36,605 nucleotides of DNA from a virus (Duplodnaviria; Heunggongvirae; Uroviricota; Caudoviricetes), in IMG/VR virus record IMGVR_UViG_3300029219_000015; one strand, written 5' to 3'. Position numbers and translations under genes: made by a program. A model generated the notes under the pieces. It was not told the DNA's origin. It made no database searches and was given only the letters and a program-made list of their open reading frames with translations. Below, piece by piece: positions 2,282-18,710 of the stretch (position 1 is its first letter; the number at the start of each line of letters is the position of its first letter).

Positions 2282-2382
2282 ATTGCTGAAAATGAGTTAC
2301 TTTTACTCTTGATCCTATAAGAATCTATGCCTAATATACTGTTTACTTATACAGTGCATCGGCGTAACTCGGTGATTGTCAT

Positions 2383-3486
2383 ATGAAAAATAGCTTTGAC
2401 AGCGCACGCGCTGCGGAGAACACCTCAAAAGAGGCGATAGAGTATCTCGAAAGAGCATCTCAAATGCAGGCCGTTATGATCTCCCAGGTCAGCAATGACA
2501 TGAGATTCTCGGACGCATTCATGTTATTCACTCGCTTATCTCTGCTGATAACCAGACGTCGGCCAGAGATCGCTGTTCATTGTATTTTGATACATGTTTT
2601 GCCGCACATTGCCGATGTAAAAGTAAGTGACATTAATAGGTTCATGGTGAACCAACTGGTCAACCCACTAATACTGGATGGCAAAATTGTTATGGGCCGC
2701 CGCGTTTTCTCTCTGATGAAGCAGTTCCTTAGCTGGTGCGCCTTCCAGGGGATGATAGACGTGTCACCGTTAAACGATATGTCACTTAACAAAGTTGCCG
2801 GTGGCGCAAAGCCCACACCTCGCGAGCGGAAGCTGACCGACGCAGAGGTATGGGTGTTCTGGAATATATGGGACTACTTCAATGTGTGTGCTGGTACAAA
2901 ATGGGCGGCCAGGCTATGTCTTGTATCCGCAAGACGACCTGACGAAGTACTGCGGGCTAAAAAAAGTGAGTTCAATCTTAAGCGTGGGGTTTGGAATCAA
3001 GGCAAGAGGAACAAATCTGCCCGTGAGCATTCTCTGCCTTTAAGCTCATTAATGCGCACTTGTATTGAAGAGTTGTTCGAATATGGTAAAGACAGCCAGT
3101 GGCTCGTGCCTTCGAATAAAAAAATCGGGAAAGACCTTCCTATGTCTAAAGTGGCAATAGCCCAGGCATTACGTCGTATTCTGGAACGACCAGAACTGAT
3201 GGAGCTTGAGCCATTTACACCCCGAGATTTGCGCCGTACTGCGCGTAGTTACTTCCCAGCATTAGGCATAAGCCAGGAGGTATCACGTAAAATCATGAAC
3301 CACAGTCTTGAGGGGATAGATCGGGTCTACGACCGGCACGATTATATGGACGAGATGCGAGACGCCTTAGAAAGTTTCTCGACGTACATCGCATCAATCG
3401 TAGAGCAACCGGATTTAGACGAAATTGACCACAAATTTAAGGGAGATCGTCTATCAACAGAGCTTATTCGTGTAAATTTTTCATAG
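2383..3486 (+). CDS. Tyrosine recombinase/integrase-like protein, P4-integrase-type C-terminus, apparently lacking an N-terminal arm-binding domain
   Basis: C-terminal motifs ARRPDEV...HSLPLS...FTPRDLRRT...NHSLEGIDRVYDRHDY match the R/K/H-x-x-R/Y pattern of tyrosine recombinases; the box II position that I recall as His is Arg here. Start codon uncertain. Confidence 0.7.
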   Translation: MKNSFDSARAAENTSKEAIEYLERASQMQAVMISQVSNDMRFSDAFMLFTRLSLLITRRRPEIAVHCILIHVLPHIADVKVSDINRFMVNQLVNPLILDGKIVMGRRVFSLMKQFLSWCAFQGMIDVSPLNDMSLNKVAGGAKPTPRERKLTDAEVWVFWNIWDYFNVCAGTKWAARLCLVSARRPDEVLRAKKSEFNLKRGVWNQGKRNKSAREHSLPLSSLMRTCIEELFEYGKDSQWLVPSNKKIGKDLPMSKVAIAQALRRILERPELMELEPFTPRDLRRTARSYFPALGISQEVSRKIMNHSLEGIDRVYDRHDYMDEMRDALESFSTYIASIVEQPDLDEIDHKFKGDRLSTELIRVNFS

Positions 3487-4429: not shown

Positions 4430-6538
4430 ATGTCTAAAAAACGTTCCATCAAAGAGGTTCAGGACTTCCGTGACAGTGTAAAACGAGTAGTCGCTCTCCT
4501 TTCAGGTAAAAACATCCCTGTTGCAGAACGAGGGGACGACGCTTATGTACGCTATAACGATGATGGAGAGCCAATTCTCGTAAACATCCCATCAATCCCG
4601 GATAACGCAACACCGGCATTGATGAATGCTGTGCGCGGATTTCTCGATCATGAGGTTGCTCACATTTTGTTTACCGATATTCGTGTGTCCAACAAAATGA
4701 GAGAAAAAGGACGCGTTCCTTCCTGGTCGCTATGGAATGCCTTAGAAGACGTGTTCATCGAGCGAAAAATGGGTCAGGTCTTTAACGGAACAAGACGTAA
4801 TCTGATGGCAACTCAGCGCCTTATAATCGAAAAAGTCTTTAAACCAAAGGCTTCAGAGGCTATTGCTTATTGTGGCAAAGATCAGCGCGCGCTTTTTCTA
4901 AACTTCTTTCTCTGTCCGGTTGTAAGAGCCTGGGATGGCCAAGCACCGTTCGTAGATTTCATGGATGAATATTGGCCTGTCATTGAGAAACCAATTTCAT
5001 TATTAAAAGAACATGGTATCGATGTGGCCGTGCGTAACATGTCTTGCACCGAGGATTGTGTAAAGGTGGCTGCGACCATAGCTAAGATCCTCAAAGACAC
5101 TGAAAGTGAAAGCAAAGGTAAGGAGTCAGCTCCGGGAAAAACTTCCGATCCTTCAGACGCTGACCAGACGGATGCCTCTGGAGAAAACAATGAAGACAAC
5201 GAAGATCATGAGACACCCTCAGCGTTAGATAATCACAAATCTATCAAATCAGAATCACACAGTAAGCACAAACATGATAATAACGACAGTGATGATTCAG
5301 ATAATTCTGAATCATCAGAAACAATATTCGATGATACAGAAAATGATAAAGAGGTATCAGATTCTGGTGCTTCTGATAACGCGGCGTCAGAATCATTTAC
5401 CACTGACCACGAAAAAAGAAAATCGACAGAAGACGGCTCTTCAGACATTCCAACTCCGTCAAAAATGAGTCTGGAAGAGGCTTTAGAGGAGTTGGATAGC
5501 ATGGAAGATGAAGTCGGAGGCATGACAGAAGATGCGCTATCCGAAACGATTAAAAGCGAGTTAACAGAAAGCTCGAAAAGCGAATACAGGCCATACAATC
5601 GCTCATACGACTTCATCGGCTCGATTGATCAGGCAGAAGCCCATATCAAACGGCTTATTAAAACATTCTCCGATATTGATTTAGGTGGATATCCAATCAG
5701 CCGTTATCGCATCGTTCCTGAAGGCAACCAACTCTTCGACAAATATATTGAAAAGCACCTTTCGTCAGGTGTTTCGTCGACGCTGGCAAAAGACCTGGAA
5801 CGTGCAATAGCAAGCAGAAACAGAGTTCAGTTTATACCTGGCCAGCGTCGGGGGCGCATTCATGGTTCAAGTATCTACAGATTAACAATGAATGATGATC
5901 GCGTGTTTCGTAAAAAAGAAGAATCTAAAGCCGTTAACGCCTGTGTTCAACAAGTGATTGATTTATCGGGTTCAATGAGTGGCGAAACGATAAAACTAGC
6001 TCTTGCAAGTGCATATACCATCGCCGATGCACTTGATCGAATAAATGTTCCCAACATTATCACCGGCTTCACTACATTTGGTAGTCATATGGCGGCAGGA
6101 GAACTTAAGGCTGTCAAGTATGAGTTCTCTCGCTTTGAATCTTTAATGCTACCTATCATCAAAAATTGGAATGAAAAGGTAAATTCTCGCGAAGTTCGCT
6201 CACGTATGGGGTGCGTAGGCTACACATTCCCACTTCTTAATAACGTGGATGGTGAAAGCATAGCCAGCCTTGCATCGTTATTTTCCGGTCGCATGGAGGA
6301 CAGGAAGATCATGCTTGTTCTGAGTGATGGCGCGCCGTGGGCTGTTGGGAGAGGTTTTGACGCTCATTTGCGTTCAGTTGCGAAGCAAATTGAAACGCAG
6401 ACTGATATTGATTTGATGGCAATTGGCATCATGACTGACGCACCGGAGAGATTTTACTCAAATCATGCCCTGGTAACGAGCGTTGATAGTCTTGGTTCAT
6501 CTGTAGTTACTGAACTATCTCGTATCATTTTAAAGTGA
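4430..6538 (+). CDS. CobT-like protein with C-terminal von Willebrand A (vWA) domain and long acidic S/D/E-rich linker
   Basis: 702 aa; AAAGGA RBS; MIDAS-like DLSGSMSG motif in the C-terminal third; roughly 160-aa acidic low-complexity region; HEVAH (HExxH-like) near the N-terminus; immediately followed by an AAA+ ATPase gene. Confidence 0.7.
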   Translation: MSKKRSIKEVQDFRDSVKRVVALLSGKNIPVAERGDDAYVRYNDDGEPILVNIPSIPDNATPALMNAVRGFLDHEVAHILFTDIRVSNKMREKGRVPSWSLWNALEDVFIERKMGQVFNGTRRNLMATQRLIIEKVFKPKASEAIAYCGKDQRALFLNFFLCPVVRAWDGQAPFVDFMDEYWPVIEKPISLLKEHGIDVAVRNMSCTEDCVKVAATIAKILKDTESESKGKESAPGKTSDPSDADQTDASGENNEDNEDHETPSALDNHKSIKSESHSKHKHDNNDSDDSDNSESSETIFDDTENDKEVSDSGASDNAASESFTTDHEKRKSTEDGSSDIPTPSKMSLEEALEELDSMEDEVGGMTEDALSETIKSELTESSKSEYRPYNRSYDFIGSIDQAEAHIKRLIKTFSDIDLGGYPISRYRIVPEGNQLFDKYIEKHLSSGVSSTLAKDLERAIASRNRVQFIPGQRRGRIHGSSIYRLTMNDDRVFRKKEESKAVNACVQQVIDLSGSMSGETIKLALASAYTIADALDRINVPNIITGFTTFGSHMAAGELKAVKYEFSRFESLMLPIIKNWNEKVNSREVRSRMGCVGYTFPLLNNVDGESIASLASLFSGRMEDRKIMLVLSDGAPWAVGRGFDAHLRSVAKQIETQTDIDLMAIGIMTDAPERFYSNHALVTSVDSLGSSVVTELSRIILK

Positions 6539-8049: not shown

Positions 8050-11000
8050 ATGAAGGCACTGATGGTTCGAACTGACTTCTCACTTGGGGAGTCGGCTCTA
8101 AAAGCAGAAAACGCGGTGAAGATTGCCAGAGAAGCTGGCTACACCGCTGTAATTTCAGCAGATAGCATGAATATTGCGAGCGTTATTCCACTACAACGTG
8201 CCGCTGGTGACGACATGGCGGTTATTTGTGGTGTGAAACTAAACATTGTTGATGATCCCACATACGAGCACCGGGCTAAACTTGCTAAAGAATCTATGAG
8301 ATGTATGGAATCATTAGAGCGGGGACGTAACTACTCGTTTACCGCTCTAATTAAAAATGAGCAAGGATATCGCGACATCTGCGAACTAATGACGGCGGCC
8401 AACACACGAGAACAGTTCTACTTTGTACCGCGTCTCTCGCTCGAACAGTTGGTTTCTACATATGCCAAAGGCAACATCATCCTGCTTACTTCCGACATCG
8501 GTAGCGTGTTCCAACGCAACGATTTTGCAAAAATCATAAGCACACTGATTACAGCGGGTGGAAAAGACAACTTCTATAGTGTGGTTTATCCGCACCCTAC
8601 CCCATTCTACGACCAGATTAACGTCCGGGCGATGAAAGTCGCCAGCGCATTGAAAATAGAGCCAGTGGCGTTCTATCCCGCTTATTACGAATCGATCGAC
8701 GATGCAGACATTAAAGACATTGCGCACATGGTTACGAACAACATCAAAATCGACCAGCCGCATCGTCTGCGTATCCCCCACCAGCGAGATAACGCCGTCA
8801 ATGGTCGCCGCCATCTCCTTGAGGCGCTTAAAGCCTTCTCCGTTCGCATGGATGTGCCGGTAACAGCTGCAATGGCCTCAACAACGCAGGATACCATTAT
8901 CGATGCCTGCACATGGCGCTGGCATGAATTGCCACCAGCACTGCCCAAGATGGCAGACGACGAACCTGCAACGCTGATGAAACTGGCTGTTGCAGGGCTG
9001 CGTAAACGTCTTACCACAAAAGAGTTTGGATACACACCACCTGCTTCTGAGAACAGGGTTTATGTTGAGCGGCTAAAGTACGAAATGGACACGCTGACTC
9101 GCCTGGGATTCTGTGGTTACTTCCTGATGGTACGCGATCTGATGAATCACAGCCGTGAAACTGGCATTCCTGTCGGGCCTGGTCGTGGTTCCTCTGCCGG
9201 TTCTCTGGTGGCGTGGTGCATAGGCATAACCAACGTCGACCCAATCCGTCACGGTCTTCTGTTTGAGCGTTTCATCAACCCTGAGCGTCTCGACTTGCCG
9301 GATGCGGACTTGGACTTCAGCCAGGCACGTCGCCATGAGGTGATCGAGTATCTGAATGAACGCTACGGCGAAGATTACGTTGCAGGCATTCCGAACTTCA
9401 CCTATCTGGGCGCGGCATCTGCGCTGCGTGACACTGCACGTATTTACGGTGTCGATGCTGCGGATATGGCGGTATCCAAAGAGTTCAAGAATATGGAGGA
9501 CGACAGCCTGTCTCTGGAAGAGCTGCGCGAGCAACTGGCCAGCCTGGACAAATACGCCACGAAAAACCCGGAAGCGTTCAAAGCGGCGTGTAAGCTGCAA
9601 AGCCTGATGCGTGGTTTTGGTCGTCACGCTGCGGGGATGATCGTCGCTGGCGTTCCATTAGTAGAGCGCACGCCCGTCGAGCTGCGTGGCAATGCTCGAT
9701 GTATTGCGTTCGATAAACGTTACTGCGAGGCGATGGGGCTGATTAAGTTGGACGTTCTCGGTCTGGCAACACTCGATCTTCTGGATAGCGCGAAACGCTA
9801 CATCAAAGAGAGTACCGGTGAAGACATCAATCTCGACGCTATCCCACTGGACGATCGCAAGGTTCTGGATGGGTTCGCTGCAGGGTACACGCAGGGCGTA
9901 TTCCAGCTGGAGTCCGGCCCCATGCGTAAGCTGCTTAAAGATCTGGGCGGTGGCATCGAGCCAATGAGTTTCAAAACCGTTGTCGCAACTACCGCCCTCT
10001 TCCGACCGGGACCGATTCAATCCGGCATGTTGGATGACTATGTTTCCGTTGCGAAAGGATTTATGACGCCTACATCACTACATCCTGTCTTGGATGAACT
10101 GACCTCTGAAACAAATGGAGTGATTCTCTATCAGGAACAAACGATGAACGCAACAAGGCTTCTTGCTGGTTTCACAATGGCCGAGGCGGATGGTGTGCGT
10201 TCAGCAATCGGTAAGAAGAACATGGAAAAGATGAGGAGCATGGGTGAGAAATTTGTCATTCAGGCTCAAGCTGGGTGGATCGACGTAGAGCTTGAAAATG
10301 GCGCAATACAACGGATTCATCGCGCAGAACATTTTAAATGCGAGGACGGTACTCTGAGGACAGTTGAAGAGGCGTTGGAGCATGGAGTGAAGCTGCCAAT
10401 GCCAGTTGTGCGCGTTACAACGTCACATCCAGGTCTGTCTGAGACGAAGGCAAAAGAGATATGGACTGCATTTGAGAAAAACGGAGCCTATCAGTTCAAT
10501 AAATCACACTCCGTTGCTTATTCTTTAATCAGTTATCAGTCTATGTGGCTAAAGACGCACTACCCTGCTGAGTTCTTCGCAGCTGCGCTCACCATTCTGG
10601 GCGAGGATAAGCATCAGGGGCTGGTGAAGGATGCGCTGACCTATGGCATTCGCGTATTGCCACCAGACGTTAATGTGTCATCTAACCGAATTGAGATCCG
10701 CACACTCGAAGACGGCAGTCAGGCACTGTATGCGCCATTCTCTGCTGTGAAAGGCTGTTCTGAAAATGGTTGTCAGGCAATTATGCGTGCGCGTGAGAAA
10801 GTTGGTGGCAAATTCGAGTCAGTGGCACAATTCGATGAAGCGGTCGAGAAGCGTGCATGTAACAGTCGTGTACGCGAGTCGCTTCATAAAGTAGGGGCTT
10901 TTGCGTCAATTGAGCCAGGCAGTCTGCCAGCAACTGATCCTGAACGACTGCGCGACCAGGCTGAGCTGATGGGCAATCTCATCATTGACGCTGTTAAAGC

Positions 11001-11568
11001 ATCACGTCCGTTCGAAATGAATCCTAAGCGTTCTGCCGAAATCAACGTACTCATGACACGTATGGCGGCTGAAATGGGCTTGGGTGAGGAGTTGATACGC
11101 CCGACTATTGGTATTAAACCCAAAATCATGATCATTCTGGACAATGCGAACGGCAATGACGCTCGTACCGGCTACTTCATGGAGAACGGATACGACGACT
11201 TTAAGGCAAAACTACTGACAGTTGGAGATCTGCGCATGGGCGATCTTTATGTCACGGGTGTTTGTAAGAAGGTTAAGGACAAAGAGAAAGACTATACCAA
11301 AGACGAGATAGGCCAGTTCACAGACTTTATGCGGGAAGAAATTAATCTTGTACGACCAACCTACATTTTGACGTGTGGTAGTCGTTCAACCGCACTATTT
11401 AACAATAAGAGTAAACCATCAGATCTGATTGGTTGTAAGGAGTACTTCCCAGAGCTTGATGCAACCGTCTTCTACGGATTTAACCCGAATATCCTGTACT
11501 TCCGACCGGAAGAAGGAGAGCGACTGGAGGCCATTCTGGCTGATATCGCGGAGACAATAAATAAGTAA
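8050..11568 (+). CDS. dnaE: DNA polymerase III alpha-subunit homolog (DnaE-type replicative polymerase)
   Basis: 1172 aa; catalytic-core motifs GIPVGPGRGSSAGSLVAWCIGIT...LLFERFINPER...LPDADLDF and FNKSHSVAYSLISYQSMWLKTHYPAEFFAA match DnaE from memory; N-terminal PHP-like region lacks the usual His pair. Confidence 0.85.
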   Translation: MKALMVRTDFSLGESALKAENAVKIAREAGYTAVISADSMNIASVIPLQRAAGDDMAVICGVKLNIVDDPTYEHRAKLAKESMRCMESLERGRNYSFTALIKNEQGYRDICELMTAANTREQFYFVPRLSLEQLVSTYAKGNIILLTSDIGSVFQRNDFAKIISTLITAGGKDNFYSVVYPHPTPFYDQINVRAMKVASALKIEPVAFYPAYYESIDDADIKDIAHMVTNNIKIDQPHRLRIPHQRDNAVNGRRHLLEALKAFSVRMDVPVTAAMASTTQDTIIDACTWRWHELPPALPKMADDEPATLMKLAVAGLRKRLTTKEFGYTPPASENRVYVERLKYEMDTLTRLGFCGYFLMVRDLMNHSRETGIPVGPGRGSSAGSLVAWCIGITNVDPIRHGLLFERFINPERLDLPDADLDFSQARRHEVIEYLNERYGEDYVAGIPNFTYLGAASALRDTARIYGVDAADMAVSKEFKNMEDDSLSLEELREQLASLDKYATKNPEAFKAACKLQSLMRGFGRHAAGMIVAGVPLVERTPVELRGNARCIAFDKRYCEAMGLIKLDVLGLATLDLLDSAKRYIKESTGEDINLDAIPLDDRKVLDGFAAGYTQGVFQLESGPMRKLLKDLGGGIEPMSFKTVVATTALFRPGPIQSGMLDDYVSVAKGFMTPTSLHPVLDELTSETNGVILYQEQTMNATRLLAGFTMAEADGVRSAIGKKNMEKMRSMGEKFVIQAQAGWIDVELENGAIQRIHRAEHFKCEDGTLRTVEEALEHGVKLPMPVVRVTTSHPGLSETKAKEIWTAFEKNGAYQFNKSHSVAYSLISYQSMWLKTHYPAEFFAAALTILGEDKHQGLVKDALTYGIRVLPPDVNVSSNRIEIRTLEDGSQALYAPFSAVKGCSENGCQAIMRAREKVGGKFESVAQFDEAVEKRACNSRVRESLHKVGAFASIEPGSLPATDPERLRDQAELMGNLIIDAVKASRPFEMNPKRSAEINVLMTRMAAEMGLGEELIRPTIGIKPKIMIILDNANGNDARTGYFMENGYDDFKAKLLTVGDLRMGDLYVTGVCKKVKDKEKDYTKDEIGQFTDFMREEINLVRPTYILTCGSRSTALFNNKSKPSDLIGCKEYFPELDATVFYGFNPNILYFRPEEGERLEAILADIAETINK

Positions 11569-11871: not shown

Positions 11872-12087
11872 TCAGCTTAGAGCAACGACATTTGCTGCTG
11901 CTGGGCCTTTAGCCCCATTCTCGATAGAGAATTCGACCTGCTGGCCTTCTTCCAAAGTGCGGAAATTATTACTCTGAATTGCCGAAAAATGTACAAAAAC
12001 ATCTTTACTGCCATCAGCAGGAGAAATAAAGCCAAAGCCTTTATCAGAGTTAAACCATTTTACTAAACCAGTCATTTTATTAGACAT
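11872..12087 (-). CDS. Cold-shock protein, CspA family
   Basis: 71 aa [38 protein letters not shown]... closely matches CspA (RNP1 KGFGFI and RNP2 VFVHF motifs); AAGAAGG 8 nt before the internal ATG at 12087. The ORF-track start at 12183 is rejected. Confidence 0.85.
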
Positions 12088-12416
12088 AGATATTACCTTC
12101 TTAATTTTGTGAGCCACATAGTGCGGCGAGAATTTGATCTGTATAGATTGGGACTTACTTAGGCACTTAAGGAGGAGACTCACGAAGAAGGGAAATCAGA
12201 AGATAACACTGAACTGAGACTGCTTTACTAAAACTGCTTACATAAGGTCTGTCTTGCAAACCAACGATGCTATTAACGCATACCCCTTCTTTTCATGCAA
12301 CCTTTATTTTTCAAAGATAACTAATTTTTGTCACCATTGGTTTAGTAAACGTTAACGAACCAGACGATGCCAGACACCTTTACAGAGAACAGATGCCCGC
12401 CAATTGGCGGGCATCA

Positions 12417-12980
12417 TTATGCGCATTTCGCAATATCTTTGCGGCGTTTAATCAGTTTCTCCGCAATTTGCTCTATTTCGTTGAAATCTTTCGAGACGCT
12501 GTTTCGAAGCGCCAGATTCCATTTACTCAAAGTTCGGGCATTTTGGACAATTTGATCGCCCTCTTTAAGTCGTCCGTTATTCATGAGCCATTCAGCCACA
12601 TCAGCCCAATCCCAGAGAGGAGACTGGCCTTTTATGCGTTGTACAGGGCAAGGGAAGTCGCCGCTTCCGCGCTTACCGTCTTTGAGCAACGCCACTGCCT
12701 GGCGAGACAGGTCTGTCAGTTCCGCGATATCGCTTAAGCCCACAAGAGCCGAGTCGACGGATTCAACAATTGCACCGATACCGGCTGATTCAATATTGTC
12801 GACCGCAGATGCGATAGCTGCATCAAGTGATTGTGCTTCGCGGTCAAATTCTACATAGACGGAGTTTCCATATGCGCAAATTAGCGCATCGTCACAGCCG
12901 TTTTGGTACAGCGCGTCTTCCAGTCCTTCCGTCTCATACGATACGCCTGAGAGCGTCAGAGTGAAGTTATAAAGCGCCAT
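12417..12980 (-). CDS. HicB-like antitoxin candidate with HTH-like segment
   Basis: 187 aa from the ATG at 12980 (AAGGA RBS); central LSDIAELTDLSRQAVALL HTH-like stretch; follows a HicA-like gene in the same orientation; perfect hairpin GCCCGCC-AATT-GGCGGGC just 3' of the stop. Confidence 0.5.
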   Translation of the reverse strand: MALYNFTLTLSGVSYETEGLEDALYQNGCDDALICAYGNSVYVEFDREAQSLDAAIASAVDNIESAGIGAIVESVDSALVGLSDIAELTDLSRQAVALLKDGKRGSGDFPCPVQRIKGQSPLWDWADVAEWLMNNGRLKEGDQIVQNARTLSKWNLALRNSVSKDFNEIEQIAEKLIKRRKDIAKCA

Positions 12981-13040
12981 AGTTTTCCTTTGAAGATAGT
13001 TGGACAGTTTCTGCAAAAGGCGGCTAATGCCGCCTTGAAA

Positions 13041-13265
13041 TCATTTACAACGATCAACCATTCGTTTGATCTGTTTGGCATGGTTTTCGGGATTACCCGG
13101 AGTCGACCATACGCTCATTTGGTGAGTTTTGTGTTCACCTTCTGGATTACCGCATCGCAGTCTGCAAAAACAATGTGCAGCACCACCAGCTGCTACCCAG
13201 ATCCAGCCTTTACTTAATGCATAGTCAATGGCTGCTTGAATATGCTTATTCGGATGTTGCTTCAT
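13041..13265 (-). CDS. HicA-like toxin candidate (small mRNA-interferase-like protein)
   Basis: 74 aa; MKQ...SKGWIWVAAGGAAHCFCRLRC...STPGNPENHAKQIKRMV resembles the HicA pattern (G-x-x-V-x-x-G-x-x-H...LR then a basic C-terminus) from memory; GGAGG RBS; canonical promoter upstream. Confidence 0.5.
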   Translation of the reverse strand: MKQHPNKHIQAAIDYALSKGWIWVAAGGAAHCFCRLRCGNPEGEHKTHQMSVWSTPGNPENHAKQIKRMVDRCK

Positions 13266-13282
13266 TCGCCTCCGATAATAGT

Positions 13283-13311
13283 ATTCTATTCACAGTGTTG
13301 ACATCTGTCAA
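13283..13311 (-). promoter_or_regulatory. Sigma70-like promoter for the HicA-like operon, with a palindromic operator over the -35
   Basis: Minus strand: TTGACA, 17-nt spacer, TAGAAT, then GGAGG and ATG; the -35 lies inside the perfect palindrome GTTGACA-TC-TGTCAAC (13297-13312). Confidence 0.5.
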
Positions 13312-13519
13312 CGGCGACTGAATTTCATCCGTTCATGCCACACCCCCATCCATCTCATGTATGTGACCTAAAGATGGTCAGCACAGCTTACCAAAATAAG
13401 ACAACTAATTATCTTCGGTGATCTCAATATTTTCCCCTGAACAAAGTTGACATGACGCCATAAACCCATTCTCTGTTTGATATAATTGATACAGATTTTA
13501 TAAGTAGGAACCTATTAGA

Positions 13520-16370: not shown

Positions 16371-18710
16371 ATGGCAAAAGGAAAATCCGCACTGGCACTT
16401 GCTCTGAAAAAGAAAATCGGTAGCAACGACGAAATTCAGAAAGTAACTCATTGGATTGATACAGGCTTTCCACCGTTAAACAAAGCTATTTCTGGTCGTT
16501 ACGATGGCGGCTTCCCATGTGGTCGTATCGTCGAAGTATTCGGGCCACCAAGCGCGGGGAAATGTGTTACCGCAGACACCATGCTGCTGACGGAGCGTGG
16601 AATGGTAACAGTGAAAGAGTTGTTTGAGATTGAAGGGTACAAAGCGACATGCACTACTCGCGATGTAGAGCATAACGTTGGACTCATCAATGAAAATGGC
16701 GTGATAGAGAAGACCTCACACCTGACATGGAACAACCGTCGCAAATTCAAGCGTATTAAGCTGGCATCAGGCGGTTATATCGAGGCTACGTTCCGTCACC
16801 CAATCCGTGTGGTTGACGACTTAGGTAATGTCGTCTGGCGACATGCTGAAAAAATCAGTGTAGGCGACACGATTCCTTCAATGGTTGGCACACATCAATT
16901 CGGCGATCAGCACCTGGATGCCAATATCGCACAACTGATGGGCTATTTAATTGCTGACGGATACGTGGCCTCTGAAAATTCAGTGAATTTTTCTAACACA
17001 GATCCTTTCATCAAGGATGAGTACTACCGCCTCATTTCGCTGGTATCAGACAAGATGCCAGTTACGAGAAAACATAACGGCTCGGAAGACCATGTGCTGT
17101 TTAGCAAAGAGGTGCGTTCGCTGCTTTTTAAAGAATATGGTCTGGAGTATGAGAAAGCTGCTGGCAAGCAGGTTCCGTTGAGTGTGCGTCGCGCCAATAG
17201 CGAGGCTCAAATTGCATTCCTTCGCGGCTACTTTGAGCTGGAATGCCACGTCAATGATGGTCGCTGCATTGAGGTTGTGAGCGCGAGTGGGCTGCTGCTA
17301 CAGCAAATTCGCCTCATGCTCCTGAATCTGGGGATTACGTCAACTATCTCTGAAAAACACGTCGCGGGTTATGAAAATACATATTACCGGCTGTCATTCA
17401 GTGGCTCTAATTACGACCTTTTTCTGTCAACGATTGGTTTCGAATCTCCGGCACGTTTATCAGTGGCAACCAAACGGGACATTGGTTTTGACCGCACTTA
17501 CTCAGGCTATGTTCCGCACATCAGCGGCTTAGTGAAATCACTCTACGAGTCGCTCACCAAGACCACCCGTGAAGACTACGCTCTGGTAGACCACGTTATT
17601 GGCCGCGGCGATCGTGTCGGAATAGACAAACTGCGAGAAATCTATGTCTCCTTCATTGGCAGAAAGAATCGTTTTAACGAGCATCTGTTTGCACAACTGG
17701 CAGCGGTAATTGGCTCTAACTTGTTCTACGACGAAGTCGTGGCTATTGAGGAAGGTGAAGCACCAACGTTCGACGTAGCGATGCCGGAAACACACTCTTT
17801 CTGGTCTAACGGGATTATCAGCCACAACACATTCCTTGCAACAGCAGCGATGATCTCCGCTCAAAAACAAGATGGTCTGGCGGTATTCCTCGATCATGAA
17901 AACAGTTTTGACGTTGGCCTGGCTGTAGCCAATGGCCTGAACGCAGATGAGGATGACGGTCAGTGGGTATACAAGCAGCCAGATACCTTCGAAGACTCTG
18001 TAGAGTTGATCGGCACAATACTTAAATTGGTTCGTGATGAAGAGCTTATCCCCGAATCAGCACCTATCTGTATCGTGGCTGACTCTCTTGCGTCTATGGT
18101 TCCGAACTCCAAAGCCGAGAAGTTCGAAAAGATGGCTGAAGGCACAGCCAAAGACAAAGATCAGCTAAACATGAACGACAATACGGCACTGGCTCGTGCG
18201 ACGAGTGCGAACTTCCCTACTCTGGCTTTGTGGGCACGCAAATACAACGCCTGCATCATCTTCTTGAATCAGGTTCGCACAAAAATCGGTGTAATGTTTG
18301 GCGACCCTACTACGTCGCCAGGTGGAGATTCACCGAAGTTCTACGCTTCTGTACGTATCCGTCTTGGTGCATCGGTGATGAAGGATGGTAAAGAGAAGAT
18401 CGGCCAGGACGTAGGCGCAGAATGCATCAAAAACAAAGTTGCACCACCGTATGGCAAATGCACCTGGAAATTCTACTTCGATCCTACTCGTGGCCTCGAC
18501 GTTATCGAGTCGCTCGTCGAGTACATGCTGGAAGAAGGATACCTGCCAAAGAACGCCAGCGGTCGAGTAGAAATTGGTGACAAGAAATACACCAAATCAC
18601 AGATCGTCGAGATGTATCGGGAGAAGCCACTAGCTGAAATCATTGCGGCTTTACAGGCAATCGACGACCGGAGATCAAAAGACAATCCCACCGAGTCAGT
18701 AGAAGAGTAA
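16371..18710 (+). CDS. recA: RecA-family recombinase interrupted by an in-frame intein (precursor 779 aa; predicted mature protein about 357 aa)
   Basis: N-extein ends GRIVEVFGPPSAGK and the C-extein starts T, reconstituting Walker A GPPSAGKT; C-extein FLNQVRTKIGVMFGDPTTSPGGDSPKFYASVRIRLG matches the RecA core; AAAGGAG RBS. Confidence 0.85.
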   Translation: MAKGKSALALALKKKIGSNDEIQKVTHWIDTGFPPLNKAISGRYDGGFPCGRIVEVFGPPSAGKCVTADTMLLTERGMVTVKELFEIEGYKATCTTRDVEHNVGLINENGVIEKTSHLTWNNRRKFKRIKLASGGYIEATFRHPIRVVDDLGNVVWRHAEKISVGDTIPSMVGTHQFGDQHLDANIAQLMGYLIADGYVASENSVNFSNTDPFIKDEYYRLISLVSDKMPVTRKHNGSEDHVLFSKEVRSLLFKEYGLEYEKAAGKQVPLSVRRANSEAQIAFLRGYFELECHVNDGRCIEVVSASGLLLQQIRLMLLNLGITSTISEKHVAGYENTYYRLSFSGSNYDLFLSTIGFESPARLSVATKRDIGFDRTYSGYVPHISGLVKSLYESLTKTTREDYALVDHVIGRGDRVGIDKLREIYVSFIGRKNRFNEHLFAQLAAVIGSNLFYDEVVAIEEGEAPTFDVAMPETHSFWSNGIISHNTFLATAAMISAQKQDGLAVFLDHENSFDVGLAVANGLNADEDDGQWVYKQPDTFEDSVELIGTILKLVRDEELIPESAPICIVADSLASMVPNSKAEKFEKMAEGTAKDKDQLNMNDNTALARATSANFPTLALWARKYNACIIFLNQVRTKIGVMFGDPTTSPGGDSPKFYASVRIRLGASVMKDGKEKIGQDVGAECIKNKVAPPYGKCTWKFYFDPTRGLDVIESLVEYMLEEGYLPKNASGRVEIGDKKYTKSQIVEMYREKPLAEIIAALQAIDDRRSKDNPTESVEE
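16563..17828 (+). mobile_element. Intein (422 aa) with LAGLIDADG-type homing endonuclease motifs, inserted in the RecA P-loop
   Basis: Begins with Cys (CVTADTMLL), ends IISHN followed by extein Thr; internal LMGYLIADGYV and FLRGYFELECHV resemble LAGLIDADG motifs; boundaries inferred from extein continuity. Confidence 0.8.

What the first reader, a model, noticed from the sequence alone, without database searches (positions are those of the whole stretch)
12417..13312. HicA/HicB-like toxin-antitoxin candidate with a palindrome-overlapped promoter, next to a CspA-like gene
Two co-oriented minus-strand genes: a 74-aa protein whose pattern (GW...G-x-x-H...LR, basic C-terminus) resembles HicA mRNA interferases, then a 187-aa protein with an HTH-like segment as HicB antitoxins have. 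Upstream is a canonical promoter (TTGACA, 17 nt, TAGAAT) whose -35 sits in the perfect palindrome GTTGACATCTGTCAAC, as expected for an autorepressed operon. Such a module could stabilise a plasmid state or act in phage defence.
Basis: partly seen in the sequence, partly recalled or inferred. Interest (0 to 1): 0.55.

Follow-up and report, generated by a model that had tools for sequence, protein, structure and literature searches.

The report
Uncharacterised toxin-antitoxin-like pair with conserved operator
A two-gene cassette on an E. coli phage-plasmid looks and evolves like a self-repressing toxin-antitoxin module, but it belongs to an uncharacterised family that resembles HicA only loosely in predicted fold, and its partner is not a HicB.

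Summary
The window comes from an SSU5-like E. coli phage-plasmid, 99.7% identical here to phage Cyrano (pLF82). On the minus strand there is a near-consensus promoter whose -35 lies in the palindrome GTTGACAgaTGTCAAC. It is followed by a 74-aa gene, a hairpin, a 187-aa gene and a terminator.

The pair is tightly linked. All 60 loci found with the small protein carry the partner. In 73 of 80 loci found with the partner the small gene lies directly upstream, though three of those copies are damaged. The core GTTGAC-N4-GTCAAC is kept at the -35 in 73 of 80 species while the flanks diverge, which marks it as an operator. The small gene is deleted or frameshifted in about 10 lineages where the large gene stays intact, and the reverse was not seen. 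This is the asymmetry expected of a toxin and its antitoxin.

The parts
13297..13312 (.). Palindrome GTTGACA-TC-TGTCAAC. The conserved core is GTTGAC-N4-GTCAAC. It is the putative operator for the 187-aa winged helix-turn-helix protein.
   Evidence: It is an exact palindrome and occurs once in the window. The core is present in 73 of 80 genome loci (once each, twice in L041) and in 46 of 60 viral loci, always in the promoter position and nowhere else in about 1 Mb. Information content is near 2 bits at all 12 core positions and near 0 in the flanks. Protein binding is inferred.
13283..13311 (-). Sigma-70-type promoter: -35 TTGACA (13311..13306), 17-nt spacer, -10 TAGAAT (13288..13283). The -35 is the left arm of the palindrome.
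   Evidence: The match to consensus is 11/12. In 72 of 73 aligned loci a hexamer with A2 and T6 lies 16-18 nt after TTGACN, and 50 of 73 score at least 4/6. The identical genes in Cyrano are transcribed 30x and 14x above the local prophage background in lysogens (PMC9928086).
13041..13265 (-). 74-aa putative toxin (PADLOC PDC-M06A, phrog_5923). The predicted fold is alpha1-beta1-beta2-beta3-alpha2, like HicA, with an apparent Cys/His metal site. The Shine-Dalgarno GGAGG lies at 13273..13269.
13017..13036 (-). GC-rich hairpin AAGGCGGC-ATTA-GCCGCCTT directly after the small gene's stop, followed by TTTT. It could be a partial terminator or an RNA-stability or processing element.
   Evidence: RNAfold gives -16.1 kcal/mol for the intergenic region. 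Analogous hairpins with different stem sequences occur in many related loci but not where the genes are 9 nt apart. In Cyrano the upstream gene has about 2x the RNA level of the downstream gene. The function is inferred.
12417..12980 (-). 187-aa putative antitoxin and autorepressor (PADLOC PDC-M06B, phrog_2620). It has an N-terminal ferredoxin-like domain (1-75), a winged helix-turn-helix of the excisionase/AlpA type (about 80-135) and a C-terminal helical hairpin (143-186).
12392..12415 (-). Intrinsic-terminator-like hairpin GATGCCCGCC-AATT-GGCGGGCATC that ends the operon.
   Evidence: Terminator scan: 10-bp stem with 8 G-C pairs, tail TGTTCTCTGT. It is a perfect inverted repeat.

Best explanation
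This is a type II toxin-antitoxin-like, self-repressed two-gene cassette carried as cargo by an SSU5-like phage-plasmid.

**Proposed mechanism.** One sigma-70 promoter drives a bicistronic mRNA with the 74-aa protein first and the 187-aa protein second.
- The 187-aa protein, probably as a dimer, is inferred to bind GTTGAC-N4-GTCAAC through its winged helix-turn-helix. That site overlaps the -35, so binding would shut off the operon.
- Its ferredoxin-like N-terminal domain and/or its C-terminal helices are inferred to sequester the small protein.
- The small protein is the harmful partner. It has a HicA-like alpha-beta-beta-beta-alpha fold.
- A conserved polar set (H4, K7, H31, T55-P56, H62) is the likely active site.
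- A separate Cys/His cluster (C38, H45/H48, C73) probably holds a zinc ion.
- By analogy with HicA the most likely activity is RNA cleavage.
- When the partner stops being made, through plasmid loss or infection-induced shut-off, the toxin would be freed and growth would stop. This would stabilise the phage-plasmid and might abort infection by other phages.

**Shown here by computation or literature:** the gene pair, its linkage, the operator footprint, the promoter, the predicted folds, and expression in lysogeny.

**Inferred:** toxicity, neutralisation, DNA binding, zinc binding and RNase activity.
For: **Linkage**
- 73 of 80 loci found with the 187-aa protein have the small gene directly upstream on the same strand.
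- 60 of 60 viral loci found with the small protein have the partner directly downstream, down to 29-44% identity.
- A cyanobacterial plasmid also carries the pair, with a different palindrome upstream.

**Asymmetric decay**
- The small gene is deleted (L012, L016, L039, L040), truncated at its 5' end (L064) or frameshifted (L020, L032) while the large gene stays intact. In L012, L016, L039 and L064 the palindrome is also kept; in L040 it is degenerate. The small gene is also missing, along with the palindrome, in L017, L033 and L044.
- Among plasmid records, 286 carry the small gene and 347 carry the large one.
- No locus with the small gene alone was found.

**Operator and promoter footprint**
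- The 12 core positions of the palindrome, plus A2 and T6 of the -10, are the only conserved bases upstream.

**Folds**
- The small protein's secondary-structure order matches HicA.
- The partner has a DNA-binding winged helix-turn-helix.

**Mobility**
- It is a stand-alone cassette among housekeeping genes in Providencia.
- It lies in a P4-like island next to a RelE/MqsA-type pair in Prodigiosinella.
- It lies in an integrase island in Pseudoalteromonas.
- In E. coli it is on plasmids only, in 110 of 5,426 complete genomes.

**Catalogues and expression**
- Both proteins match PADLOC PDC-M06A and PDC-M06B.
- The identical genes are transcribed in Cyrano lysogens (PMC9928086).

**Metal site**
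- Wide-family members with Cys at position 48 mostly carry His two residues after C73.
- The window's subfamily instead has H45 and H48 and ends right after C73. This is a ligand swap.
Against: - No experiment shows toxicity or neutralisation for any member. PDC-M06 is explicitly untested, and the Cyrano 'HicA/HicB' labels came from BLASTP annotation transfer.
- Homology of the small protein to any known toxin is not established:
  - Pfam, NCBIfam and PDB sequence profiles give nothing.
  - hhalign gives 12-58% probability.
  - Foldseek gives no hit.
- If H31 is a metal ligand rather than a catalytic residue, the HicA analogy weakens.
- The operator is degenerate in Yersinia pestis pMT1 and a few other loci that still keep both genes.
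- The loci used to detect loss of the small gene were collected with the large protein, which biases that count. The reverse search covered only viral contigs.
Confidence: 0.62

Rival explanations
1. It is a genuine member of the HicA/HicB family: a HicA mRNA interferase neutralised by a HicB antitoxin. This is what the first reader proposed and what the Cyrano GenBank record states.
For: - The gene order is toxin first, as in hicAB.
- Motif-level correspondences exist: G-W at the end of helix 1, G-x-x-H before strand 2, and T-P after strand 3 (hand alignment).
- The best colinear hhalign segment covers helix 1 through the His motif.
- The Cyrano record annotates the pair this way.
Against: - Pfam HicA_toxin matches neither the protein nor any of 104 diverse relatives, even at E<=1.
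- Profile searches of PDB sequences miss all HicA entries.
- The hhalign probability is 12-14% for the colinear match, and the 55-58% match is not colinear.
- Foldseek finds no HicA.
- The family has an apparent Cys/His metal site and an invariant N-terminal H-P-N-K motif, both absent from the HicA sequences aligned here.
- The partner fails every HicB criterion tested.
Confidence: 0.15
2. It is not a toxin-antitoxin pair. It is a transcription factor with a small non-toxic accessory or payload protein, for example a zinc-binding nucleic-acid-binding moron or an anti-defence factor. The palindrome would then simply be the regulator's autoregulatory site.
For: - No toxicity data exist.
- The small protein's similarity to toxins is weak.
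- It looks like a small zinc-binding protein.
- The large protein belongs to excisionase or regulator-type PHROG families.
- The pair is expressed as a moron in lysogeny.
Against: - The small gene is lost one way only, with the regulator and usually its operator retained, and the reverse was never seen.
- The cassette stands alone in chromosomes with no phage context.
- It sits beside another toxin-antitoxin pair in a P4-like island.
- It is embedded in defence loci, which is the basis of PDC-M06.
- The gene order and sizes are typical of toxin-first type II modules.
Confidence: 0.18
3. This concerns the biological role and does not exclude the toxin-antitoxin mechanism. The cassette's main function would be anti-phage defence by abortive infection (PADLOC candidate PDC-M06), protecting the lysogen from other phages, rather than stabilising the plasmid.
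For: - Both proteins match the PDC-M06 models.
- PDC systems were defined because such cassettes are found embedded in BREX, DISARM or type I restriction-modification loci. PDC-M06 had 497 RefSeq occurrences.
- One copy is carried in a P4-like satellite island.
- The pair is expressed in the lysogen.
Against: - PDC-M06 has not been tested.
- Toxin-antitoxin modules commonly hitch-hike in defence islands without defending.
- In E. coli the cassette is only on low-copy phage-plasmids, about 5.5 copies per cell for Cyrano, where post-segregational killing is the simplest benefit.
- The same phage-plasmid already carries other toxin-antitoxin pairs (KacT, RelE).
Confidence: 0.25

Closest known systems
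HicAB type II toxin-antitoxin systems (E. coli HicAB 6HPB, Burkholderia pseudomallei HicAB 6G26, Yersinia pestis HicA3B3 4P78, Streptococcus pneumoniae HicBA 5YRZ)
   Same: - The toxin gene comes first and the DNA-binding antitoxin second.
- A conserved His lies just before strand 2, after a glycine-rich turn.
- The antitoxin has an N-terminal alpha/beta domain followed by a C-terminal DNA-binding domain.
- A palindromic site lies at the promoter.
   Different: - No sequence-profile similarity to HicA or HicB.
- No Foldseek support.
- The toxin is longer (74 aa against 58-66), with a 10-residue insert between strands 2 and 3.
- The toxin has an apparent Cys/His zinc site and an invariant N-terminal His-Pro-Asn-Lys motif.
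- The antitoxin's N-terminal domain is ferredoxin-like, not a partial RNase H fold.
- Its DNA-binding domain is an excisionase/AlpA-type winged helix, not RHH or Xre.
- It has an extra C-terminal helical hairpin.
MqsRA and HigBA (other 'reverse-order' type II systems with helix-turn-helix antitoxins)
   Same: - The toxin is encoded upstream of a larger two-domain antitoxin that carries the DNA-binding domain and represses its own promoter through a palindrome (general knowledge of these families).
- A RelE/MqsA-like pair lies next to this cassette in one island.
   Different: - The toxin here does not have the RelE fold.
- In MqsA the zinc site is in the antitoxin, whereas here the apparent metal site is in the small protein.
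- There is no sequence similarity.
PADLOC phage defence candidate PDC-M06 (Payne et al., bioRxiv 10.1101/2024.01.29.577857)
   Same: It is the same two protein families in the same order. The HMM matches are 1.2e-19 (A) and 1.3e-32 (B).
   Different: PDC-M06 is only a catalogue entry derived from guilt-by-embedding. It has no assigned fold, mechanism, operator or tested phenotype.

Membership tests
HicA toxin (Pfam PF07927 HicA_toxin) | Significant match to the family's sequence profile | tested here: not met
   There is no PF07927 hit for the window protein at E<=1, and none in any of 104 diverse relatives. NCBIfam gives none. A profile search of PDB sequences misses all HicA chains. hhalign against two HicA alignments gives 12-58% probability over 19-25 columns.
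HicA toxin (Pfam PF07927 HicA_toxin) | dsRBD-like alpha1-beta1-beta2-beta3-alpha2 fold | tested here: met
HicA toxin (Pfam PF07927 HicA_toxin) | Catalytic histidine in the Gly-x-His turn before strand 2 | tested here: inconclusive
   H31 is 95% conserved across the wide family, follows G28 and sits immediately before strand 2, as H24 does in B. pseudomallei HicA. The correspondence rests on secondary-structure register only. No residue-level superposition was available, and H31 could instead be a metal ligand.
HicA toxin (Pfam PF07927 HicA_toxin) | Ribosome-independent mRNA cleavage and growth arrest | not testable with these tools
   This needs expression and RNase assays.
HicB antitoxin (Pfam HicB / HicB_lk_antitox) | Significant match to the family's sequence profile | tested here: not met
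   There is no Pfam family at E<=1 apart from a spurious CagE hit. None of the 120 listed homologues has any precomputed Pfam domain. No PDB sequence hit.
HicB antitoxin (Pfam HicB / HicB_lk_antitox) | N-terminal partial RNase H-like beta-beta-beta-alpha-beta domain | tested here: not met
HicB antitoxin (Pfam HicB / HicB_lk_antitox) | C-terminal RHH or Xre-type helix-turn-helix DNA-binding domain | tested here: not met
Type II toxin-antitoxin module (generic) | Two small adjacent co-oriented genes inherited as a unit, one of them encoding a DNA-binding protein | tested here: met
   73 of 80 loci and 60 of 60 loci show the pairing in searches from either partner. The second protein has a winged helix-turn-helix.
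Type II toxin-antitoxin module (generic) | Autoregulation through a palindromic operator at the promoter | tested here: inconclusive
   The palindrome overlapping the -35 is conserved across 73 of 80 species while the flanks diverge. This is strong indirect evidence, but binding and repression were not testable.
Type II toxin-antitoxin module (generic) | The antitoxin can persist without the toxin, but not the reverse | tested here: met
   The small gene is deleted, truncated or frameshifted in 7 loci and missing in 3 more where the partner is intact. Among plasmid records, 286 carry the small gene and 347 the large one. 0 of 60 toxin-seeded loci lack the partner.
Type II toxin-antitoxin module (generic) | Toxicity of one product, neutralised by direct binding of the other | not testable with these tools
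   There are no experimental data in the searchable literature.
PADLOC PDC-M06 (candidate defence system) | Adjacent genes matching the PDC-M06A and PDC-M06B models | tested here: met
   1.2e-19 for A and 1.3e-32 for B. The genes are 60 nt apart on the same strand.
PADLOC PDC-M06 (candidate defence system) | Protection against phage infection | not testable with these tools
   The source paper lists it among 145 untested candidates.

The most novel reading that the evidence does not exclude
The 74-aa protein would found a distinct, widespread toxin family (about 740 clusters at 50% identity, from enterobacteria to cyanobacteria). In this reading a HicA-like RNA-binding fold is clasped by a zinc site whose ligands swap between subfamilies (Cys38/Cys48/Cys73/His75 against Cys38/His45/His48/Cys73). 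Its antitoxin is built from parts not used by HicB: a ferredoxin-like domain and an excisionase-type winged helix. The antitoxin would recognise one nearly universal operator, GTTGAC-N4-GTCAAC. Carried by phage-plasmids and satellites, the module would act as an abortive-infection defence as well as an addiction system.
Probability: 0.3. Interest if true: 0.6.

Novelty: new variant of a known kind. Interest (0 to 1): 0.42.

Why it matters
If the small protein is toxic, this would be an uncharacterised toxin-antitoxin family found in several settings:
- It is on SSU5-like phage-plasmids in about 2% of complete E. coli genomes.
- It is present in all 63 Yersinia pestis plasmid records that matched (pMT1-like).
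- It occurs in many Enterobacterales chromosomes and islands.

It would help explain how these low-copy phage-plasmids are maintained. It is also already listed, untested, as a candidate anti-phage system.

The near-invariant 12-bp operator across dozens of genera gives a ready handle for regulation studies. It also predicts cross-talk between copies in one cell. The apparent zinc site on a HicA-like scaffold would be a new structural variant of a known toxin fold.

The work also corrects a public annotation. 'HicB' is not justified for the large protein, and 'HicA' is justified at most as 'HicA-like fold'.

Tried and rejected
- **Frame error.** Searches failed because I gave the wrong frame for the csp gene. 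I repeated them.
- **Sequence searches against solved structures.** Profiles of both families found no relevant PDB hits.
- **hhalign against an E. coli-type HicA alignment.** It gave a 55-58% match, but the match pairs the N-terminal HPNK helix with HicA's C-terminal PRHP helix. It is not colinear, so I treated it as spurious.
- **hhalign against a more diverse HicA set.** A PDB-verified alignment gave a colinear match at only 12-14% probability.
- **Foldseek against PDB.** No significant hit.
- **Unavailable or failed searches.** The AlphaFold-database library was not available. The wide alignment A3 was too diverse for a locus search, so I used A1 instead.
- **Literature.**
  - 'PDC-M06' appears in no main text, only in a supplement table.
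  - A search for zinc-containing HicA-like toxins found nothing relevant.
  - The SSU5 phage-plasmid surveys do not discuss this pair.
- **cspG as part of the module.** Rejected. It is adjacent only in this E. coli lineage.
- **The 187-aa protein as the lysogeny regulator of the phage-plasmid.** Rejected. The cassette stands alone in chromosomes without phage genes, and Cyrano has a separate putative repressor.
- **An internal promoter for the second gene.** The consensus scan found none.
- **The intergenic hairpin as a universal feature.** Rejected. It is absent where the genes are 9 nt apart.
Full report
**What the window is.** The region 12300-13400 is 100% identical to many E. coli plasmids of about 110 kb and 99.7% identical to Escherichia phage Cyrano, the pLF82 phage-plasmid related to Salmonella phage SSU5. 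The neighbouring genes are typical of that group:
- DnaE at 8050-11568.
- A gene annotated in Cyrano as a UvsY recombination mediator (no Pfam hit).
- A gp32-like single-strand DNA-binding protein and a 5'-3' exonuclease.
- A RecA homologue.

In complete E. coli genomes the cassette occurs in 110 of 5,426 genomes, always on a plasmid and never on the chromosome.

**The observation.** On the minus strand the order is:
- -35 TTGACA (13311-13306), a 17-nt spacer and -10 TAGAAT (13288-13283).
- Shine-Dalgarno GGAGG (13273-13269).
- A 74-aa ORF (13265-13041).
- A GC-rich hairpin (13036-13017).
- A 187-aa ORF (12980-12417).
- A strong terminator-like hairpin (12415-12392).

The -35 is the left arm of the perfect palindrome GTTGACA-TC-TGTCAAC (13297-13312). 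Taken alone, neither the palindrome nor the promoter is beyond chance. In 19% of shuffles the palindrome pattern matched with up to 2 mismatches, and the number of promoter-like sites equals the shuffle mean. The adjacent gene is a true CspG/CspA-type cold-shock protein.

**Family searches.**
- Neither protein matches any Pfam or NCBIfam family, including the HicA and HicB models.
- Both belong to PHROG families: phrog_5923 (unknown function) and phrog_2620 ('excisionase and transcriptional regulator').
- Both match PADLOC's two-gene candidate PDC-M06 (A at 1.2e-19, B at 1.3e-32).
- PDC systems are 145 untested 'phage defence candidates', chosen because such cassettes occur embedded in BREX, DISARM or type I restriction-modification loci.
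- PDC-M06 is cassette CAS_00046, with 497 RefSeq occurrences (bioRxiv 10.1101/2024.01.29.577857).

**Existing annotation.** The Cyrano record labels the genes 'HicA toxin protein' and 'putative antitoxin HicB'. The paper's methods show that these labels came from BLASTP annotation transfer and Pfam, not from experiment (PMC9928086). The same paper reports that both genes are transcribed in lysogens at 30x (small gene) and 14x (large gene) the local prophage background. RefSeq calls them 'hypothetical protein' and 'helix-turn-helix / AlpA family transcriptional regulator'.

**The pair is a unit.**
- I scanned one genome per species with the 187-aa alignment and obtained 80 loci.
- In 73 of them a homologue of the 74-aa protein lies directly upstream on the same strand.
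- I ran the reverse test by scanning viral contigs with the 74-aa alignment and obtained 60 loci.
- All 60 have the 187-aa homologue directly downstream, even where it is only 29-44% identical.
- A cyanobacterial plasmid (Gloeothece) also carries the pair.
- A profile search of 1.84 billion cluster representatives finds 740 clusters of the small protein at E<=0.001.

**Asymmetric decay.**
- Seven of the 80 genome loci lack the small gene.
- In four of these (L012, L016, L039, L040) the sequence shows a deletion that leaves the promoter region directly in front of the intact large gene.
- L012 keeps only 'ATGAAGAAA' of the small ORF.
- L040 keeps its first 10 codons fused to the intergenic hairpin.
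- In L064 the 5' half of the small gene is gone.
- In L020 and L032 the small gene is frameshifted.
- In the plasmid collection 286 records hold the small gene and 347 hold the large one.
- The excess includes 34 E. coli SSU5-like plasmids that keep only an N-terminally truncated copy of the large gene.
- I found no locus with the small gene alone.

This one-way loss is what is expected if the small product is harmful without its partner. The genome loci were collected with the large protein, so the count of small-gene losses is biased. The reverse test covered only viral contigs.

**The palindrome is a phylogenetic footprint.**
- I aligned the 140 nt upstream of the small gene from all loci. 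Almost nothing is conserved except GTTGAC-N4-GTCAAC.
- The exact core occurs in 73 of the 80 genome loci, once in each except L041, which has two adjacent copies.
- It always lies 45-55 nt before the start codon or its remnant, and nowhere else in 997 kb, where about 0.06 matches are expected by chance.
- It is also present in 46 of the 60 viral loci, including some whose partner protein is only about 40% identical.
- Information content is close to 2 bits at the 12 core positions and close to 0 on either side, apart from the A2 and T6 positions of a -10 hexamer placed 16-18 nt after TTGACN.
- That hexamer is present in 72 of 73 loci, and 50 of 73 score at least 4/6.
- The promoter-plus-operator architecture is therefore conserved, with the -35 inside the left half-site.
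- The core is degenerate in Yersinia pestis pMT1 and a few other loci.
- The cyanobacterial pair has a different palindrome, GGTTGTCA-GT-TGACAACC, in the same place.

That the 187-aa protein binds this site is an inference, but it is the obvious one.

**The 74-aa protein.**
- AlphaFold2 with 53 homologues gives a confident model (pLDDT 87.9). The order is helix 7-18, strand 22-25, strand 32-37, a short helix at 43-47, strand 49-53 and helix 59-72. This is the order found in HicA.
- The support stops there:
  - Foldseek finds nothing significant and no HicA.
  - Pfam HicA_toxin matches none of 104 diverse family members.
  - hhalign against an E. coli-type HicA alignment gives only a non-colinear 22-25-column match.
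  - hhalign against a diverse, PDB-verified HicA alignment gives a colinear helix1-GW-strand1-His match at 12-14% probability.
- By hand, three HicA signatures have counterparts: G20-W21, G28-x-x-H31 just before strand 2, and T55-P56 after strand 3.

Across the wide family the conserved residues fall into two groups:
- H4 (100%), K7, H31 (95%), T55, P56 (100%) and H62. From the topology I infer that these lie at the end of the sheet where HicA has its active site.
- C38 (98%), position 48 (Cys 83%, His 13%) and C73 (98%).

Members with Cys48 usually have His two residues after C73. The window's subfamily instead has His45 and His48 and ends right after C73. A ligand swap of this kind points to a tetrahedral metal site, probably zinc, which the HicA sequences aligned here lack. 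I could not inspect coordinates, so the spatial clustering is inferred.

**The 187-aa protein.**
- The AlphaFold2 model is confident (pLDDT 89.9).
- It shows an N-terminal beta-alpha-beta-beta-alpha-beta domain (1-75), a helix-turn-helix with a wing (about 80-135) and two long C-terminal helices (143-186).
- No HicB appears among the 60 best hits.
- PHROG side-hits are excisionase or regulator families.

It therefore shares HicB's general plan, a neutralising alpha/beta domain followed by a DNA-binding domain, but not its folds.

**Context and role.**
- In Providencia the cassette sits alone between housekeeping genes.
- In Prodigiosinella it lies in a P4-like integrative island beside a RelE/MqsA-type pair.
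- In Pseudoalteromonas it lies in an integrase-flanked island.
- The cspG neighbour is specific to this E. coli lineage.
- The GC-rich hairpin after the small gene recurs with different stem sequences in many loci but is missing where the genes are 9 nt apart. It may attenuate or process the transcript, which would fit the roughly 2:1 RNA ratio in Cyrano.

**Conclusion.** The best-supported reading is a type II toxin-antitoxin-like, self-repressed cassette. Its toxin has a HicA-like fold but belongs to a separate, uncharacterised family that probably binds zinc. Its antitoxin is a ferredoxin-like/winged-helix protein that recognises GTTGAC-N4-GTCAAC. On a phage-plasmid with about five copies per cell, the simplest benefit is post-segregational killing. 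Anti-phage abortive infection is possible and untested. Toxicity, neutralisation, DNA binding, metal binding and RNase activity are all inferred. I rate it a new variant of a known kind, of moderate interest.

Noticed in passing
window 16371-18710 (+): The RecA-like gene (779 aa) contains an intein with a LAGLIDADG homing endonuclease (Pfam Intein_splicing 73-486, LAGLIDADG_3 279-356, RecA 484-703). A sibling plasmid, CP099286, has a 357-aa gene at the same place, so the intein is polymorphic among these phage-plasmids.
   Followed up: partly
window 13017-13036 (-), and the intergenic regions of L003-L082: A GC-rich hairpin directly after the small gene's stop recurs in many species with different stem sequences (up to 15 bp). 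It is absent in loci where the two genes are 9 nt apart. It could be a partial terminator or an RNA-processing or stability element that sets the toxin:antitoxin ratio.
   Followed up: partly
window 11872-12087 (-), upstream region to about 12340: This cspG-type cold-shock gene has a long leader and its own weak promoter-like site (12334-12306). It is adjacent to the cassette only in this E. coli phage-plasmid lineage.
   Followed up: partly
L085 (CP095457.1, E. coli pJH51-3) 2346-3016: A second lineage of E. coli SSU5-like plasmids (34 more Escherichia records match the large protein than the small one) has lost the promoter, the small gene, cspG and the first 21 codons of the large gene. It keeps a 186-aa remnant with a new start between the uvsY-like gene and dnaE.
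   Followed up: partly
L006 (Yersinia pestis pMT1-like contig) and L040, L038, L029: The operator is degenerate (for example GTTGACACGCGCTCAC) in all pMT1-type copies although both genes look intact. The same variant sequence appears in Cedecea, where the small gene is deleted. Regulation may differ there.
   Followed up: no
L086 (Gloeothece citriformis plasmid pP742401) 2440-3300: The cyanobacterial homologue of the pair has a different perfect palindrome (GGTTGTCA-GT-TGACAACC) upstream. Its small protein has extra cysteines in the loop between strands 2 and 3 (CPYNDADCRCGEFC).
   Followed up: no
L041 (Enterobacter pulveris) about 5651-5690: Two tandem copies of the operator, GTTGACATCCGTCAAC and GTTGACAGGCGTCAAC, lie 6 nt apart upstream of the small gene.
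   Followed up: no
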